This document shows positions 2,883 to 7,372 of a DNA stretch of 64,000 bases, one piece after another (the first letter of the stretch is position 1; the number at the start of each line of letters is the position of its first letter). Made by a program: the position numbers and the translations under genes. Below the pieces are notes generated by a model. The model was given only the letters and a program-made list of their open reading frames with translations. It searched no databases and was not told the DNA's origin. This DNA comes from a virus. The DNA lies in the IMG/VR virus record IMGVR_UViG_3300028044_000003, positions 32,001 to 96,000 of that record; one strand, written 5' to 3'.

Positions 2883-3238
2883 TTATATGAATTAGTTGTG
2901 GTTCATAAGTGATTGATAGTGAGAGAGTTGGAGAGGTATTGTTACCTCACCCTCTTTCATTGTCCACTTAATTGTACGAGAATCAGAACTGGGCGCCCGG
3001 CGCACCTCATAGCTAGTCTCTAAGAGAGTAGATACACTTATACTTGAAACACTATACTCGTTATAGTGTTTCTCGTATACTTGTTTCGTATACTCACTTA
3101 CTTGTTTTATCATTTACTTGGTTCTTGTATCTGGTAACCGAGGGTTTGATTCCTCTTTCTTTTATTTTAGTATCCAGGTGATTAAGGCGTGAAAATCGTG
3201 CGTTGATTATTAATCAGGTTCACCAAATCCTTCTATAT

Positions 3239-3622
3239 ATGATTTCACCTATCATTACTCTTTCTAACGATAAGAAAGTTATAAACTTTTCGTCTCCTCA
3301 TGATTTTCATTTTGTTGATGGTACTATTTTACCCAGGATATCTGACGAAGATGCCGAGCGTTTAAAAGTAACATTCATCGAAAATGTACATGATAATGGC
3401 GATGTTGAGTTATCCTTTACCCTGGGTCCAGAAGTACATACCAGGATGATGGAATGTAAAACGTTATGGGATAATGATCTAGTAGACGTTGTTTACTGTC
3501 CGTTACCTATGATTACCGCTCTCAAAGAATCCGGGTATGATCTCAAAAACTCTCCGTTTCGAGCAATTCGTGTTGAAGACCGTATCAAAAAACTTGTCTC
3601 TATCGACAAACAATGTATTTAA
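3239..3622 (+). CDS. hypothetical protein
   Basis: track ORF 3203..3622; ATG at 3239 preferred. Confidence 0.75.
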   Translation: MISPIITLSNDKKVINFSSPHDFHFVDGTILPRISDEDAERLKVTFIENVHDNGDVELSFTLGPEVHTRMMECKTLWDNDLVDVVYCPLPMITALKESGYDLKNSPFRAIRVEDRIKKLVSIDKQCI

Positions 3623-3637
3623 GAAATAACAAACCAA

Positions 3638-3694
3638 AGAATAGTTCAGCACATTTCAAACATCAATCTGCTAAATTGAATTGTATCTATTCTG
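3638..3694 (+). ncRNA. TCAGCA stem RNA copy 1, with a Ser(GCT)-like anticodon arm
   Basis: AGAATAG/CTATTCT-G stem, TTCAGCACATT, internal TCAAT-CTGCTAA-ATTGA. Confidence 0.6.
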
Positions 3695-3704
3695 TATTTG
3701 TTAG

Positions 3705-3732
3705 TAACCCGTCTCTTTTAGGGATGGGTTAC
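3705..3732 (+). terminator. hairpin, possible terminator
   Basis: GTAACCCGTCTC-TTTA-GGGATGGGTTAC; no good U tract. Confidence 0.4.
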
Positions 3733-3864
3733 ACATCTTAAGCGTTTCCAGGAAACAGGTACTGGTGTAAAGTCCCGATGAAACCAATCTCTGACGTGTC
3801 GAGAGTTTGGTGATATATCCGGTAAGCATGGGAAACGTATTTTTTTACTATCTTAATCTCCGAT

Positions 3865-4053
3865 ATGAAAAATAATTTTGCTTTTAGATTAGTCTTACTA
3901 ATCGTAATGATTCTTCTTATATCTGCTCTGTACCTTACTTTTATAAGATTCGGATATATTACTTGTGTTGATAAAGCCGGTTCTAATCAAAAAAAACTTT
4001 GTGCTTGTGAAGTAAAATGGTTAGATAAAGATAATAATTGTGGGTTTGAATAA
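3865..4053 (+). CDS. small Cys-rich membrane protein
   Basis: TM helix followed by YITC...CAC...C. Confidence 0.7.
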   Translation: MKNNFAFRLVLLIVMILLISALYLTFIRFGYITCVDKAGSNQKKLCACEVKWLDKDNNCGFE

Positions 4054-4146
4054 ACGGTAAACATTGATCCGGAAGGTTTCTCTTCAAAATACGCGGTGAA
4101 AATCGCGACGTACATGTCCCCTGGAAAGGACGGTTTTTATAATTGA

Positions 4147-4213
4147 TATTTAACCTGGAAGTGTGCGAATGAGTTCCAAGCTTGACCCTAACGTAAAGTC
4201 GAGGGTGCTAATA
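4147..4213 (+). promoter_or_regulatory. structured leader motif copy A
   Basis: GAGTTC..AGC..TGACCCT...GGGTGCTAATA, shared with 11709-11816; 15 nt to ATG. Confidence 0.5.
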
Positions 4214-4228
4214 CTAAACTTTTATTAC

Positions 4229-4663
4229 ATGAATTTGAAAACACAAATTATTGACAAATTATTCTCAGGAAACGAACATGAATTGGACGCCTCAGAAAGA
4301 GTATTTATTGCTAAGTCTTTAAGTACTACAAGTAAAAACTCTATTTTAGAATCTATTACAAATAAAGGTACGTGTGACAAACATAATAAAAATTGTCAAC
4401 ATGTAGCTTTAGATTTAACTGATGAAGAAATGAATAATCTTCAAAAAAAAGCTTTTGATACGATAATTACATCAGCTTCTTTAGAAGATGTTTTAGTAAC
4501 TTTTATCAGTGGTTTAAAAGATTCTGAAATAGTTTATCTGTTAGATCTAAGTTTTATCAATCTTGCTCGTATAGAAAAAAACGAAAGAATGTCTAAAGAT
4601 TTGAATTTATTAGGAGATAGATTAAGAAAGTTAAAAGATTTTTTAGATAAAAATAATAGTTAA
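4229..4663 (+). CDS. hypothetical protein
   Basis: track ORF 4163..4663; ATG at 4229 preferred. Confidence 0.75.
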   Translation: MNLKTQIIDKLFSGNEHELDASERVFIAKSLSTTSKNSILESITNKGTCDKHNKNCQHVALDLTDEEMNNLQKKAFDTIITSASLEDVLVTFISGLKDSEIVYLLDLSFINLARIEKNERMSKDLNLLGDRLRKLKDFLDKNNS

Positions 4664-4681
4664 CTTTTAAAACCTAACTTT

Positions 4682-4882
4682 ATGACAAAAAGAGATATCA
4701 ACCAGACAATCAAAGATTTGAAAAAAGAGATAATTAAATTATCTTTACAGGAAACTCGTTTAAATCATGAATCTGACGATTATTACGAACAGATTTCTGA
4801 GATTAAATCGATGAAAGAAGAATTTAATGAAGAAATAAGTTTGCTAACTTTAGAGTTAAGTGAGCTTGAAGTTAAGTATTAG
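4682..4882 (+). CDS. small coiled-coil protein
   Basis: 66-aa ORF with heptad pattern. Confidence 0.7.
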   Translation: MTKRDINQTIKDLKKEIIKLSLQETRLNHESDDYYEQISEIKSMKEEFNEEISLLTLELSELEVKY

Positions 4883-4901
4883 ATTTGGTGAATAATACTA
4901 A

Positions 4902-4959
4902 GGGATGTTTCAGCACATTATAAAAGCCAAAATTGAGGATTTTGTTTTATTACATCCCG
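4902..4959 (+). ncRNA. TCAGCA stem RNA copy 2, with a Leu(GAG)-like anticodon arm
   Basis: GGGATGT/ACATCCC-G stem, TTCAGCACATT, internal CAAAA-TTGAGGA-TTTTG. Confidence 0.6.
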
Positions 4960-4990
4960 TTTTTTATTATCTAAATTCTAGTAAAAATTC

Positions 4991-5040
4991 AGCGGAAGTT
5001 AAGTCGGTAACTTCAGTGGTTCGAATCCACTTCCGCTACA
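4991..5040 (+). ncRNA. mini tRNA-like RNA (acceptor stem plus T arm)
   Basis: AGCGGAA/TTCCGCT-ACA; GTGG-TTCGAAT-CCAC; one short internal hairpin. Confidence 0.65.
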
Positions 5041-5134
5041 ATTACCTTAATATCCTATAAAAGATAGGTGGTAACTTTAAAGTATCCATCACGTCAGTAA
5101 TGACGTACCAAGATGGGTCTTTGCCCGGGTTTAA

Positions 5135-5234
5135 AGGTTAGATCAGCAAATTACATCTACAAACATGTATTAGTTTAGTTGTAAAAGGGGGAAGTTCGTA
5201 ATCGTCAATTTGATGAGCGAATTAAACTAACCTG
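5135..5234 (+). ncRNA. TCAGCA stem RNA copy 3
   Basis: AGGTTAG/CTAACCT-G stem, ATCAGCAAATT, internal hairpins. Confidence 0.55.
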
Positions 5235-5314
5235 ATTGCCCAAAAAATTCGCTCTATCGATTTGATAGAGCGGATTTCCCTCTCATTATTTTGTCACCAA
5301 ATCAATTACCAAAT

Positions 5315-6691
5315 ATGAGTTTATTAAATGCTATGAGAACTAAAGATTCTCTAACCAACAATGGTGCTGTTACTAACAGTACAAGTCTTAACTTTTGTTT
5401 AGACATGTTTTTCCTGGCCGGAGCTTCGCGTAATATGTCTGAAGAAGATATAATTCTAGTATTCGAAAGAGCTTTTGGTCAAAACCCTTTGACAACAATT
5501 AGAGTGTTGTTCTGGGCCCGTGATGCGCGTGGAGGTGCTGGTGAGAAAAGATTCTTTCAGATAATCTTATCACATATTCAGAAAACTTATCCGGATGTAT
5601 TTACCAAAATATATCCATTAGTTTATGAATACGGATATTTCAAAGATCTCTTCAAGATGCGTCCTACACAGGAGTTATTAAATTACTTTGCCTGGGCGTT
5701 GAGTCATCATCCTCAAAGAAATCTTCTGGCTAAGTATTTTCCTCGTAAAGGGAAATGGTTTAACTCTTTTCGTATCCACCAGGAAGAAAAGCCTAAGACG
5801 CTTAGAAAGTTTCTCGTAGAGATGACCAAAGTAGTTGAGACACAAATGTGTAACAACGAATGGGATGCTATTGAGTACTCTAAGGTTCCGTCTGTAGCCA
5901 TGAGAACTTACGCTAAGTCTTTTGGTAAACATGATTATCCTAGATTCAGTCAGTACATCCAGGACGTACTTAAAGGTGATAAGAAAATAAACGCTTCGGT
6001 GTTATTTCCTAATCAACTTTACAGAGCGTATTTGATGAATGAATCAGAAGATCAGGTTCAGGCTCAGTGGAACGCGTTACCAGATTACCTTACTAAGTCG
6101 GAAAATCATCGTATTTTACCGATATGTGACGTATCGGGAAGTATGTCAGGTTTACCTATGGAAGTATCTGTTTCCCTGGGGGTATATATTAGTGAAAAGA
6201 ATCGAGGTATCTTCAAGGATGCTTTTGTTACTTTCTCTAAAGACCCTAAAATACAGATACTACAAGGTAATCTTTATCAGAGATTTCGTCAGTTAGATAC
6301 TGCAGAATGGGGTATGAATACAGATTTAAACGCTGTGTTTAGTCTTATTCTAGACTCGGCTGTAAGAGAGAACTTACCAGAAAACGAGATGCCGACATCA
6401 CTTCTTATCATATCCGATATGGAATTTGATAGTTGTGGTAAACTTTCTAATCTTGATTCGTTGCGCGAAATGTATTCTAGAGCCGGTTACAAATTACCTT
6501 CAGTGGTATTTTGGAACGTAAACGGTAGACTGAATAACGTTCCGGCTACAATGAACGATAAGGGAGTGGCTCTTGTAAGTGGGTTTAGCCCTTCAATACT
6601 GACGTCAGTTCTTGATGGTACAGTTACAGATCCGGTATCGATGATGCTGAAGGTGATTAATTCACCGCGGTACGAACAGGTAGAGCTGTAA
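5315..6691 (+). CDS. DUF2828-type TROVE/Ro60-like protein with C-terminal vWA domain
   Basis: RDARGGAGEK, YSKVPSVAM, MIDAS DVSGSM, ISDMEFD, VFWNV, LVSGFSP motifs; ATG 5315 preferred over TTG 5291. Confidence 0.85.
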   Translation: MSLLNAMRTKDSLTNNGAVTNSTSLNFCLDMFFLAGASRNMSEEDIILVFERAFGQNPLTTIRVLFWARDARGGAGEKRFFQIILSHIQKTYPDVFTKIYPLVYEYGYFKDLFKMRPTQELLNYFAWALSHHPQRNLLAKYFPRKGKWFNSFRIHQEEKPKTLRKFLVEMTKVVETQMCNNEWDAIEYSKVPSVAMRTYAKSFGKHDYPRFSQYIQDVLKGDKKINASVLFPNQLYRAYLMNESEDQVQAQWNALPDYLTKSENHRILPICDVSGSMSGLPMEVSVSLGVYISEKNRGIFKDAFVTFSKDPKIQILQGNLYQRFRQLDTAEWGMNTDLNAVFSLILDSAVRENLPENEMPTSLLIISDMEFDSCGKLSNLDSLREMYSRAGYKLPSVVFWNVNGRLNNVPATMNDKGVALVSGFSPSILTSVLDGTVTDPVSMMLKVINSPRYEQVEL

Positions 6692-6696
6692 ATAAT

Positions 6697-6731
6697 AGGT
6701 GTAGATAATAAAAATCTACACCTTTTTTTTT
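6697..6731 (+). terminator. intrinsic terminator
   Basis: AGGTGTAGAT/ATCTACACCT plus T run. Confidence 0.8.
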
Positions 6732-6757
6732 ATTTTTTATTCACCAATTTTAACACC

Positions 6758-7372
6758 ATGTCAAAAATTATAATCTCATGCGCTGATCTTGTTAAAAAGA
6801 GCGCGATGGCCATAACTTACACTCGTTTAAAAAAAATAAAACCTGTAGTAACTCCTCGTATGATTGTAGGAGATAAATCGGCAAAAGATAAATCAAAGTC
6901 TCATCTGATAGAACTTGTAGGTACTTTAAAAGTAAACTCTGATTTTGATTTAAAATACACGTTTGACGAAATTGTAGATAATCATGATCATTTTGTTCTT
7001 ATAGAACACAAATACTTTGATGGTGATGAAATAGCAGATTGGTTTCTTAAGTCCTCGTTATTACAAACAGCTTTTTATGACGCGTTAGTTACTCTTAACA
7101 ATAATAAAACTTACATAACTGCAGATTACGAATTAGCTAAAGATAATCCTCGATATGAAATTATTATCGATAAACCGGTTGTATCTATCTTGGATATTAA
7201 AGACAAGAAGTACTCTATAGAAGTAACCGATGCTCCTAAACTTGTAGGGTTTTATCTTAAAAAAGCCCAGGCTACATTTGATTACACCCAGGCTAGGTTA
7301 CACGATGACTTCTATAAGAGTAAAGAGTACGAAACACTGAGTCCTTTTTTTACTTTTAAACTTTTATCATGA
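6758..7372 (+). CDS. PD-(D/E)XK nuclease-like protein
   Basis: FDEI...LIEHK...QTAFY pattern. Confidence 0.55.
   Translation: MSKIIISCADLVKKSAMAITYTRLKKIKPVVTPRMIVGDKSAKDKSKSHLIELVGTLKVNSDFDLKYTFDEIVDNHDHFVLIEHKYFDGDEIADWFLKSSLLQTAFYDALVTLNNNKTYITADYELAKDNPRYEIIIDKPVVSILDIKDKKYSIEVTDAPKLVGFYLKKAQATFDYTQARLHDDFYKSKEYETLSPFFTFKLLS

What the first reader, a model, noticed from the sequence alone, without database searches (positions are those of the whole stretch)
3663..4944. Anticodon stem-loop mimics inside the TCAGCA RNAs (Ser-GCU and Leu-GAG)
Seen: copy 1 contains TCAAT-CTGCTAA-ATTGA (3663-3679) and copy 2 contains CAAAA-TTGAGGA-TTTTG (4928-4944). Each is a 5-bp stem with a 7-nt loop fitting Y32-U33-NNN-R37-A38. 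A37 with GCU and G37 with GAG match real tRNA-Ser and tRNA-Leu. Copy 3 has no such loop. Inference: decoys for host anticodon nucleases (PrrC, RloC, VapC or PARIS AriB type) or for tRNA-modifying enzymes, displayed on the TROVE-like scaffold.
Basis: inference. Interest (0 to 1): 0.74.

Follow-up and report, generated by a model that had tools for sequence, protein, structure and literature searches.

The report
Anticodon-arm mimics on Ro60-partner RNAs
Two small phage RNAs next to the gene for a Ro60-like ring protein each carry a hairpin whose loop copies a tRNA anticodon loop, and the pattern recurs far above chance in related phages, so it is a real feature of an RNA family I could not find in the literature; what the mimicry is for is untested.

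Summary
They are not chance. Each sits in a ~56-nt RNA unit (3638-3693, 4902-4958) made of a conserved handle and a variable body. The handle is a 7-bp closing stem, then NN-CAGCA(A/C), with CUGU at the 3' end.

A covariance model built only from other phages finds exactly these two units in the 64-kb window. In 78 related loci the units lie just upstream of the same gene, on the same strand. That gene (5315-6691, DUF2828+DUF7788) folds like Ro60.

Among 33 clusters of short units:
- 13 have a 7-nt loop as best hairpin (shuffles give 2.5);
- 11 fit Y-U-NNN-R-N (shuffles give 0.2);
- 8 are identical to real tRNA anticodon loops from the same phages (shuffles give 0.1).

Unit 1's loop equals the E. 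coli tRNA-Ser(GCU) loop 7/7. Unit 2's matches tRNA-Leu(GAG) 6/7.

So the anticodon-arm mimicry is supported. The decoy-for-nucleases function remains inference. The handle resembles Dictyostelium Class I RNAs (Rfam RF01414) but scores below threshold.

This scan has noted the same family in many other genomes. I found no published description.

The parts
3638..3693 (+). Handle RNA unit 1 (56 nt). Closing stem AGAATAG/CTATTCT, then TT-CAGCAC, an 18-nt 5' linker in all, the anticodon-like arm and a 7-nt 3' linker. GT follows the unit.
   Evidence: Model R1, built without the window, matches 3636-3695 at 29.6 bits, E 6e-5.
3663..3679 (+). Anticodon-arm mimic 1: 5-bp stem TCAAT/ATTGA with loop CUGCUAA (anticodon GCU, A37), the tRNA-Ser(GCU) type.
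   Evidence: The loop is identical to E. coli serV. The same loop sits on a different stem in the L085 unit 1307-1367.
4902..4958 (+). Handle RNA unit 2 (57 nt). Closing stem GGGATGT/ACATCCC, then TT-CAGCAC, a 19-nt 5' linker in all, the anticodon-like arm and a 7-nt 3' linker. G plus a T run follows the unit.
   Evidence: Model R1 matches 4900-4960 at 31.4 bits, E 2e-5.
4928..4944 (+). Anticodon-arm mimic 2: 5-bp stem CAAAA/TTTTG with loop UUGAGGA (anticodon GAG, G37), the tRNA-Leu(GAG) type.
   Evidence: It matches the E. coli leuU loop TTGAGGT in 6 of 7 positions. This loop was not seen in the other 80 loci.
5135..5233 (+). Handle RNA unit 3, the long form (99 nt). Closing stem AGGTTAG/CTAACCT, then AT-CAGCAA. 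It has no anticodon-like arm and sits in the gene-proximal position that long units occupy in most relatives.
5315..6691 (+). Gene for a 458-aa Ro60-like ring protein (DUF2828 + DUF7788/vWA with a DxSxS MIDAS motif), the presumed protein partner of the RNAs.
   Evidence: Pfam. PHROG 850 'RNA-binding protein'. AlphaFold model with the top 13 PDB matches all Ro60/TROVE. Invariant D272-S274-S276.

Best explanation
The two hairpins are tRNA anticodon-arm mimics. They form the variable 'cargo' of two small phage RNAs that belong to a modular family.

Each RNA has a conserved handle: start (A)AG, a 7-bp stem joining the two ends, single-stranded NN(N)CAGCA(A/C) after the 5' arm, and a 3' end CUGU. 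I infer that the handle docks the RNA on the phage's Ro60-like ring protein encoded just downstream, as Y RNA stems dock on Ro60.

The body between the handle arms is exchangeable. In this phage it is a 5-bp/7-nt hairpin displaying the loop of tRNA-Ser(GCU) or tRNA-Leu(GAG). In relatives it displays Lys(UUU), Asn(GUU), Thr, Gln, Phe or Met loops, other tRNA arms or a whole tRNA.

The most likely working model is inferred, not shown. The particle presents an anticodon loop, at a fixed distance from the ring, to a host protein that reads anticodon loops. That protein would be an anticodon nuclease or a position-37/34 modification enzyme. The RNA would either soak it up or tether it to the ring.

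Seryl- and leucyl-tRNA synthetases do not read the anticodon (established knowledge), so sequestering synthetases is unlikely in this phage.
For: Shown:
- The hairpins exist, and shuffles give such a hairpin in about 0.3% of trials per unit.
- The units belong to a family: 139 strict hits on the gene strand against 1 on the other strand in 81 loci.
- A model built without the window finds only these two in 64 kb.
- The phage genome holds exactly three units, all by the gene.
- Units are present in at least 69 of 78 loci, and 123 of 136 lie within 700 nt upstream of the gene.
- The protein folds like Ro60.
- Loop size peaks at 7 nt, in 27 of 79 units.
- At cluster level, 13, 11 and 8 of 33 clusters meet the three loop tests, against shuffle means of 2.45, 0.21 and 0.10.
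- 12 of 86 units have loops identical to real anticodon loops of tRNAs in the same phages, against 0.34 expected.
- The Lys loop CTTTTAA sits on five different stems, Asn CTGTTAA on two and Ser CTGCTAA on two.
- G37 occurs only after G36, as it mostly does in real tRNAs.
- The 5' linker is held at 15-21 nt.
- Some units carry a whole tRNA, for example L065 4670-4777.

By analogy:
- Ro60 binds the Y RNA stem, bacterial YrlA has a tRNA-like module (PMC4201824), and Thermus phage Ro60 binds phage Y-like RNAs and host PNPase (PMC12135203).
- The commonest loop types here (Lys UUU, Asn GUU, Thr UGU) are the targets of PARIS AriB (PMC12409363).
Against: - No binding, expression or processing data exist.
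- Both window stems are AU-rich and marginally stable. Unit 1's arm is not in the MFE fold.
- Only about one third of short-unit clusters carry an anticodon-like arm.
- The Leu(GAG)-type loop was seen only in this window.
- The stems do not copy real tRNA stems, and the units lack the UAAUC|A site that E. coli AriB needs. AriB also reads the D loop, which these RNAs lack.
- The phage has no recognisable RtcB or Rnl2 RNA ligase. The Rnl1 search was uninformative.
- Neighbouring genes are uninformative.
- The hairpin set used for the covariation count was chosen for being hairpins.
- Related phages share ancestry, so the clusters are not fully independent.
Confidence: 0.5

Rival explanations
1. 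These are generic Y-RNA-like partner RNAs whose loops are not read. They work only through the handle, gating the Ro60-like ring or tethering it to a host exonuclease such as PNPase. The anticodon-like shape would be inherited from a tRNA ancestor of the cargo and would have no present role.
For: Cargo is very diverse, and two thirds of short-unit clusters lack an anticodon-like arm. Some units hold whole tRNAs or T-arm-like parts, which suggests a tRNA origin. Thermus phage Ro60 with its Y-like RNAs binds host PNPase (PMC12135203).
Against: Loops stay identical to real anticodon loops while their stems change by paired substitutions: five stems for CTTTTAA. Neutral relics in roughly 77% A+T sequence (47% A, 30% T) would lose U33/R37 and the 7-nt size. 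This phage has no tRNA genes to donate the arms.
Confidence: 0.25
2. The two hairpins are chance AU-rich hairpins in the variable part of otherwise real small RNAs.
For: There are only two examples in this genome. The stems are weak. Alternative folds exist. The pattern YU-NNN-R-A was chosen after seeing the sequence. The Leu-type loop does not recur.
Against: Shuffles give such a hairpin in about 0.3% of trials per unit. The family-wide excess holds at cluster level. Unit 1's loop recurs on another stem in a distant relative, next to a real tRNA-Ser(GCU).
Confidence: 0.07
3. The hairpins are processing or stability elements. The units would be minimal tRNA-like substrates that direct RNase P, RNase Z or other processing of a polycistronic RNA. 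Alternatively they are armless tRNAs used in translation.
For: In several relatives the units follow directly, by 3 nt, after the last tRNA of a 12-19 tRNA array. They have a 7-bp terminal stem followed by G. Their size of about 56 nt resembles T-arm-less mitochondrial tRNAs (my own knowledge).
Against: ARAGORN and the Rfam tRNA model find nothing. There is no D stem, no T arm and no CCA. Bacterial EF-Tu and RNase P need the acceptor/T-arm stack (established knowledge). This reading does not explain the conserved CAGCA motif or the link to the Ro60-like gene.
Confidence: 0.05

Closest known systems
Ro60 (Rsr/TROVE2) with Y RNAs, especially bacterial and phage YrlA (Chen et al. 2014, PMC4201824) and Thermus phage phiLo Ro60 with Yrl1/Yrl2 (PMC12135203)
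   Same: A ring protein of HEAT repeats plus a vWA/MIDAS domain (fold match). Small RNA genes lie next to its gene. The RNA is modular: a 5'/3' stem handle plus a second module that imitates tRNA.
   Different: The protein matches Pfam DUF2828/DUF7788, not TROVE, and a profile search of PDB sequences finds nothing. No Rfam Y RNA or YrlA hit. The handle is a 7-bp stem plus CAGCA, not the bulged Ro-binding helix or the CGAA motif. YrlA imitates the D, T and acceptor parts and puts the Ro stem where the anticodon arm would be. Here the anticodon arm itself is what is displayed.
Dictyostelium Class I RNAs (Rfam RF01414; Kjellin et al. 2021, PMC7919456)
   Same: RNAs of about 60 nt. A short stem joins the two ends. 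They start with AAG. A conserved ~11-nt motif sits directly after the 5' arm (Rfam consensus CUUACAGCAAUu). The 3' end is CUGU, with its C pairing to the 5' G. The rest is variable. Phage units score 30.7 and 25.9 bits against RF01414.
   Different: The scores are below the gathering score of 41.5, and the window's own units gave no RF01414 hit at E<=10. Class I RNAs are eukaryotic, are reported as unique to dictyostelids, and are known to bind the RRM protein Rnp1A. No Ro60-like partner or anticodon-like body has been described for them.
Phage tRNAs that counter anticodon nucleases (T5 tRNA-Lys/Thr/Asn against PARIS AriB; PMC11464382, PMC12409363)
   Same: Phage-encoded RNAs whose anticodon loops are those of nuclease-targeted tRNAs. 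Lys(UUU), Asn(GUU) and Thr(UGU) are the most recurrent loop types in this family.
   Different: Those are full, functional, cleavage-resistant tRNAs that replace the host's. These are 56-nt RNAs that cannot work in translation, so any effect would be as bait or competitor, which has not been shown for any system I found.

Membership tests
tRNA anticodon stem-loop (shape only) | 5-bp stem, 7-nt loop, Y32, U33, purine 37 | tested here: met
   for both hairpins. Real tRNAs in the related phages show U33 in 38 of 38 distinct loops, A or G at 37 in 37 of 38, and C or U at 32 in 36 of 38.
tRNA anticodon stem-loop (shape only) | Loop sequence equal to that of a real tRNA of the same anticodon | tested here: met
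   Unit 1 matches E. coli serV 7/7. Unit 2 matches E. coli leuU 6/7. The host's own tRNAs are unknown.
tRNA (gene) | Cloverleaf with D and T arms, detected by ARAGORN or Rfam RF00005 | tested here: not met
   No tRNA in the window or in the whole phage genome.
Handle-RNA family next to DUF2828 genes (defined here) | Match to a covariance model built from other phages' units: 7-bp closing stem, CAGCA motif, CUGU end | tested here: met
   R1 matches 4900-4960 (31.4 bits, E 2e-5) and 3636-3695 (29.6 bits, E 6e-5). These are the only hits in 64 kb on either strand.
Handle-RNA family next to DUF2828 genes (defined here) | Same strand as, and close to, a DUF2828/DUF7788 gene | tested here: met
   The window units lie 357-1,622 nt upstream of the gene. 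In relatives, 123 of 136 units lie within 700 nt upstream. The strand ratio is 139:1.
Y RNA / YrlA (Rfam RF00019, RF02553) | Match to the curated Rfam models | tested here: not met
   No hit at gathering score or at E<=10.
Y RNA / YrlA (Rfam RF00019, RF02553) | Binds a Ro60 protein through its terminal stem | not testable with these tools
   Only gene adjacency and the protein's Ro60-like fold are available.
Dictyostelium Class I RNA (RF01414) | Score at or above the Rfam gathering score (41.5 bits) | tested here: not met
   The best related phage units score 30.7 and 25.9 bits. The window units are not reported at E<=10.
Dictyostelium Class I RNA (RF01414) | AAG start, short terminal stem, conserved motif after the 5' arm, CUGU end, about 60 nt | tested here: met
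   The flank logo of 118 units reads AA|AGRATRC NN(N) CAGCA(A/C) ... GYATYCT|GT. In it, the G at stem position 2, its pairing C, and the G that follows the unit in CUGU were selection criteria of the census, so they are fixed by construction. The paper's description is in PMC7919456.
Ro60/TROVE protein | Ring of HEAT-like repeats plus a vWA domain (fold) | tested here: met
   The top 13 Foldseek PDB hits are all Ro60/TROVE, full length, probability 1.00, TM about 0.5. The model has mean pLDDT 76.7.
Ro60/TROVE protein | Sequence match to Pfam TROVE or to solved Ro60 sequences | tested here: not met
   Pfam gives DUF2828 and DUF7788 only. The profile against PDB sequences gives no hit at E<=1.
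Ro60/TROVE protein | MIDAS motif DxSxS in the vWA domain | tested here: met
   D272, S274 and S276 are invariant in 18 homologs.

The most novel reading that the evidence does not exclude
The handle-tagged anticodon arms are RNA baits. Held on the Ro60-like ring, they would capture or compete for host enzymes that attack or mark tRNA anticodon loops, such as anticodon nucleases of the PARIS AriB, PrrC, RloC or VapC kind. That would be an RNA-based anti-defence mechanism not described so far. The same handle in Dictyostelium Class I RNAs would then mean that these unexplained eukaryotic RNAs are partners of a Ro60-like (DUF2828) protein too.
Probability: 0.15. Interest if true: 0.9.

Novelty: new variant of a known kind. 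Interest (0 to 1): 0.66.

Why it matters
Ro60/Y-RNA particles are known from animals, bacteria and a few phages, and bacterial Y RNAs imitate the tRNA elbow. Here a large, uncatalogued phage branch pairs a Ro60-shaped protein with a different handle, and many of its RNAs display the part of tRNA that bacterial immune nucleases cut.

If the display is functional, it would add an RNA-bait or tether layer to the phage-host conflict over tRNA.

It would also give a testable partner and function for the Dictyostelium Class I RNAs, which have lacked an explanation since 2004 (date from my own knowledge).

For this window it turns a two-example guess into a family-level regularity with a clear bench test.

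Tried and rejected
- Rfam at gathering and at E<=10 over the region found nothing relevant.
- ARAGORN found no tRNA in the window or the genome.
- blastn of 3000-7000 against phage GenBank records gave no match.
- A reverse-complement strand control for the loop pattern was uninformative. Y-U-NNN-A-A loops fit the pattern on both strands (33/167 against 40/234), so I replaced it with shuffles and with identity to real tRNA loops.
- My first clustering, at 70% identity, lumped the units too coarsely (17 clusters). I redid it at 75% identity with a stricter alignment scoring.
- A relaxed unit scan was too noisy to use for counts (526 against 242).
- A viral-contig scan with a pattern shared by units 1 and 2 returned only chance hits in coding DNA. 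So I found no closer relative that would show whether these two particular arms are conserved.
The 95%-identical relative's contig (L003/L006) ends at the gene start, so its upstream region could not be read.
- Searches of the phage genome for RtcB and Rnl2 were negative. The Rnl1 search was uninformative because its controls did not ring.
- The Atlas search gave only viral DUF2828 clusters and says nothing about dictyostelids.
- Armless-tRNA reading: rejected for lack of D and T arms and of CCA.
- Synthetase-sponge reading: rejected because SerRS and LeuRS do not read anticodons.

Full report
**1. What is in the sequence**

The window is part of a 111.5-kb IMG/VR virus record of about 30% G+C. 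The two hairpins are exactly as described:
- TCAAT|CTGCTAA|ATTGA at 3663-3679;
- CAAAA|TTGAGGA|TTTTG at 4928-4944.

Each sits inside a larger unit of constant build:
- Unit 1, 3638-3693: closing stem AGAATAG/CTATTCT, then TT-CAGCAC; 18 nt in all from stem to arm; the arm; 7 nt; the 3' stem arm; then GT.
- Unit 2, 4902-4958: closing stem GGGATGT/ACATCCC, then TT-CAGCAC; 19 nt; the arm; 7 nt; the 3' stem arm; then G and a T run.
- Unit 3, 5135-5233 (99 nt): the same handle, AGGTTAG-AT-CAGCAA...CTAACCT-G, but no 7-nt-loop arm.

The whole phage genome holds exactly these three units and no tRNA gene. All three lie upstream of, and on the same strand as, the gene at 5315-6691.

**2. The protein**

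- Pfam reports DUF2828 plus DUF7788.
- PHROGs reports family 850, 'RNA-binding protein'.
- A profile search of PDB sequences finds nothing.
- An AlphaFold model built on 18 homologs has mean pLDDT 76.7.
- The model's top 13 Foldseek matches in the PDB are all Ro60/TROVE proteins, aligned full length at probability 1.00. They include Thermus phage phiLo Ro60 (9KOP, 9L5Y), Xenopus Ro60 with RNA (1YVP), Deinococcus Rsr (2NVO) and human Ro60.
- The vWA part keeps an invariant D-x-S-x-S.

So 'TROVE-like' is right at the level of fold, not of sequence family.

**3. The RNA family**

I fetched 80 viral loci whose protein is 35-95% identical to the window's. I scanned them for four features together:
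- a 7-bp closing stem;
- 1-4 nt of spacer;
- C[AC]GCA[AC];
- a stem starting RG, with its G pairing a C, and a G following the unit.

Results:
- The scan hits 139 times on the gene strand and once on the other strand.
- The hits reduce to 118 distinct units: 86 short (48-72 nt) and 32 long (84-130 nt).
- 123 of 136 units end within 700 nt upstream of the gene.
- With a covariance model, at least 69 of 78 loci with enough upstream sequence have a unit.
- The flanks give the consensus AA|AGRATRC-NN(N)-CAGCA(A/C)...GYATYCT|GT.

Model R1 was built from 43 units of other phages only. It finds exactly two matches in the 64-kb window on either strand: 4900-4960 (31.4 bits, E 2e-5) and 3636-3695 (29.6 bits, E 6e-5).

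In several relatives the units close a 12-19-gene tRNA array, starting 3 nt after the last tRNA. In L065 a unit encloses what ARAGORN calls a tRNA-Gln (4670-4777). L082 2537-2666 and L078 4569-4664 carry tRNA-like or T-arm parts.

**4. Is the anticodon-like arm more than chance?**

Within the window:
- The 64 kb hold 9 (+) and 5 (-) hairpins with five Watson-Crick pairs and a Y-U-NNN-R-A loop. Two of these sit in the two 42-43-nt unit interiors.
- Shuffles of each interior give such a hairpin in 0.25% and 0.32% of trials.

Across the family:
- The most stable simple hairpin of the short units has a 7-nt loop in 27 of 79 cases. That is the clear mode.
- I collapsed the 86 interiors to 33 clusters and took one representative of each.

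| Test on 33 cluster representatives | Observed | Shuffle mean | Shuffle maximum (of 400) |
|---|---|---|---|
| Best hairpin has a 7-nt loop | 13 | 2.45 | 7 |
| 7-nt loop also fits [CU]U-NNN-R-N | 11 | 0.21 | 2 |
| Loop identical to a real anticodon loop of an ARAGORN-called tRNA in these phages | 8 | 0.10 | 2 |

- At unit level the last figure is 12 of 86, against 0.34 expected.

Loops that recur on different stems:
- CTTTTAA (Lys UUU) on five stems, plus the variant CTTTTAC;
- CTGTTAA (Asn GUU) on two;
- CTGCTAA (Ser GCU) on two: the window, and L085, where a real tRNA-Ser(GCU) follows the unit;
- TTTTGGT (Gln) on two;
- single cases of Thr UGU, Thr GGU, Phe GAA, Met CAU, Cys GCA and the window's Leu GAG.

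Further regularities:
- G37 occurs only after G36 (3 of 4), and A37 occurs in all 15 other cases. The real phage tRNAs show the same tendency.
- The distance from the closing stem to the arm is 15-21 nt.
- Unit 1's loop equals that of E. coli serV 7/7. Unit 2's differs from E. coli leuU only at position 38.

Caveats:
- My first control, the reverse complement, was useless because the pattern is self-complementary in form.
- The pair count on the chosen arms gives 92.6% of cells paired against 46% when shuffled. That count rests on hairpins I selected.
- The clusters share ancestry.
- The window's stems are weak.
- The Leu-type loop is unique to this window so far.

**5. What the family is like**

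The closest known system is Ro60 with Y RNAs. Its RNAs are modular, with a terminal stem that binds the ring and a second module that in bacteria imitates tRNA (PMC4201824). A Thermus phage Ro60 binds two phage Y-like RNAs and host PNPase (PMC12135203).

The differences are real:
- There is no Rfam Y RNA or YrlA match.
- The handle is different.
- YrlA lacks the anticodon arm, whereas here that arm is the cargo.

The handle instead matches the description of Dictyostelium Class I RNAs: about 60 nt, AAG start, a short terminal stem, a conserved motif after the 5' arm and a CUGU end (PMC7919456). Rfam RF01414 (consensus GaUcuC-CUUACAGCAAUu...GagAuC-UG) scores two L028 units at 30.7 and 25.9 bits. 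That is under the gathering score of 41.5. The window units were not reported. It is a resemblance, not a membership. The lead came from earlier notes of this scan, and I tested it here.

**6. How it probably works**

Shown:
- The RNA family exists.
- It is linked to a Ro60-fold gene.
- The cargo is modular.
- There is an excess of anticodon-loop copies.

Inferred:
- The handle binds the ring.
- The arm is offered to a protein that reads anticodon loops.

For Ser and Leu the synthetases do not read the anticodon (established knowledge). That leaves nucleases, modification enzymes (t6A37 for ANN decoders such as Ser GCU, Lys, Asn and Thr; m1G37 for Leu GAG) or the ribosome.

The most recurrent loops (Lys UUU, Asn GUU, Thr UGU) are the targets of PARIS AriB (PMC12409363). 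However, the units lack AriB's UAAUC|A site and the D loop it also contacts.

The phage has no RtcB or Rnl2 ligase. A self-contained repair platform is therefore not supported here. I hold the bait or tether reading at roughly one in three and the specific anti-nuclease decoy at about 15%.

**7. Literature and earlier notes**

Searches for DUF2828, for YrlA or Y RNA with phage, and for anticodon-nuclease decoys found no description of these RNAs.

This scan has noted the same protein-handle pairing in many other genomes. One such report was later checked as 'seen 90/100, bold reading 6/100'. I did not use those notes as evidence.

**8. Verdict**

- The structural interpretation, anticodon-arm mimics on Ro60-partner RNAs, is supported.
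- The functional interpretation, decoys, is open.
- I class this as a new variant of a known kind: a Ro60/Y-RNA-type particle with a different handle and different cargo.

Noticed in passing
window 4991-5040: A 50-nt element with a 6-7-bp acceptor-like stem, one internal hairpin, a canonical T arm (GTGG-TTCGAAT-CCAC) and an ACA end. It lies between units 2 and 3 and has no CAGCA handle. It folds well (z -3.3) but ARAGORN does not call it.
   Followed up: partly
window 3700-3848: Right after unit 1 comes a 13-bp hairpin (3704-3732). Then comes a roughly 96-nt structured stretch closed by ACGTTTCC/GGGAAACGT and a T run (z -3.0). It has no Rfam match.
   Followed up: no
short units of L007, L010, L012, L013, L027, L028, L029, L034, L065, L073 and others: A second cargo class has loops carrying GG in a D-loop-like context (ATTGGTA, ATTGGTTA, TATAGGAAAT, TAAGGT). 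GG is in the best-hairpin loop in 17 of 86 units, against 6.8 +/- 2.4 in shuffles. Together with T-loop-like TTCGAAT and TTCAAAT loops in long units, this suggests the cargo can be any arm of a tRNA.
   Followed up: partly
L004 ~3463-3495; L005 ~2778-2810 and ~3390-3430: Hammerhead-like core CTGATGAG...CGAAAC lies upstream of the units. In L005 the element appears split by an inserted GIY-YIG-type ORF. Rfam reported no hammerhead at E<=0.1.
   Followed up: no
L005 5895-6048: A weak group I intron match (29 bits, E 6e-4) lies downstream of where the DUF2828 match stops, at residue 361. The gene may be interrupted by an intron in that phage.
   Followed up: no
L065 4670-4777; L082 2537-2666; L078 4569-4664: Handle units that enclose a whole tRNA-like body (ARAGORN calls the L065 one tRNA-Gln UUG) or a T arm. 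They show the same handle used with full-size tRNA cargo.
   Followed up: partly
L085 1307-1479; L027-L031, L044 ~2540: Units sit directly beside real tRNA genes. The L085 Ser(GCU)-type unit lies 21 nt before a real tRNA-Ser(GCU). In the tRNA-array phages the first unit starts 3 nt after tRNA-Arg(UCU).
   Followed up: partly
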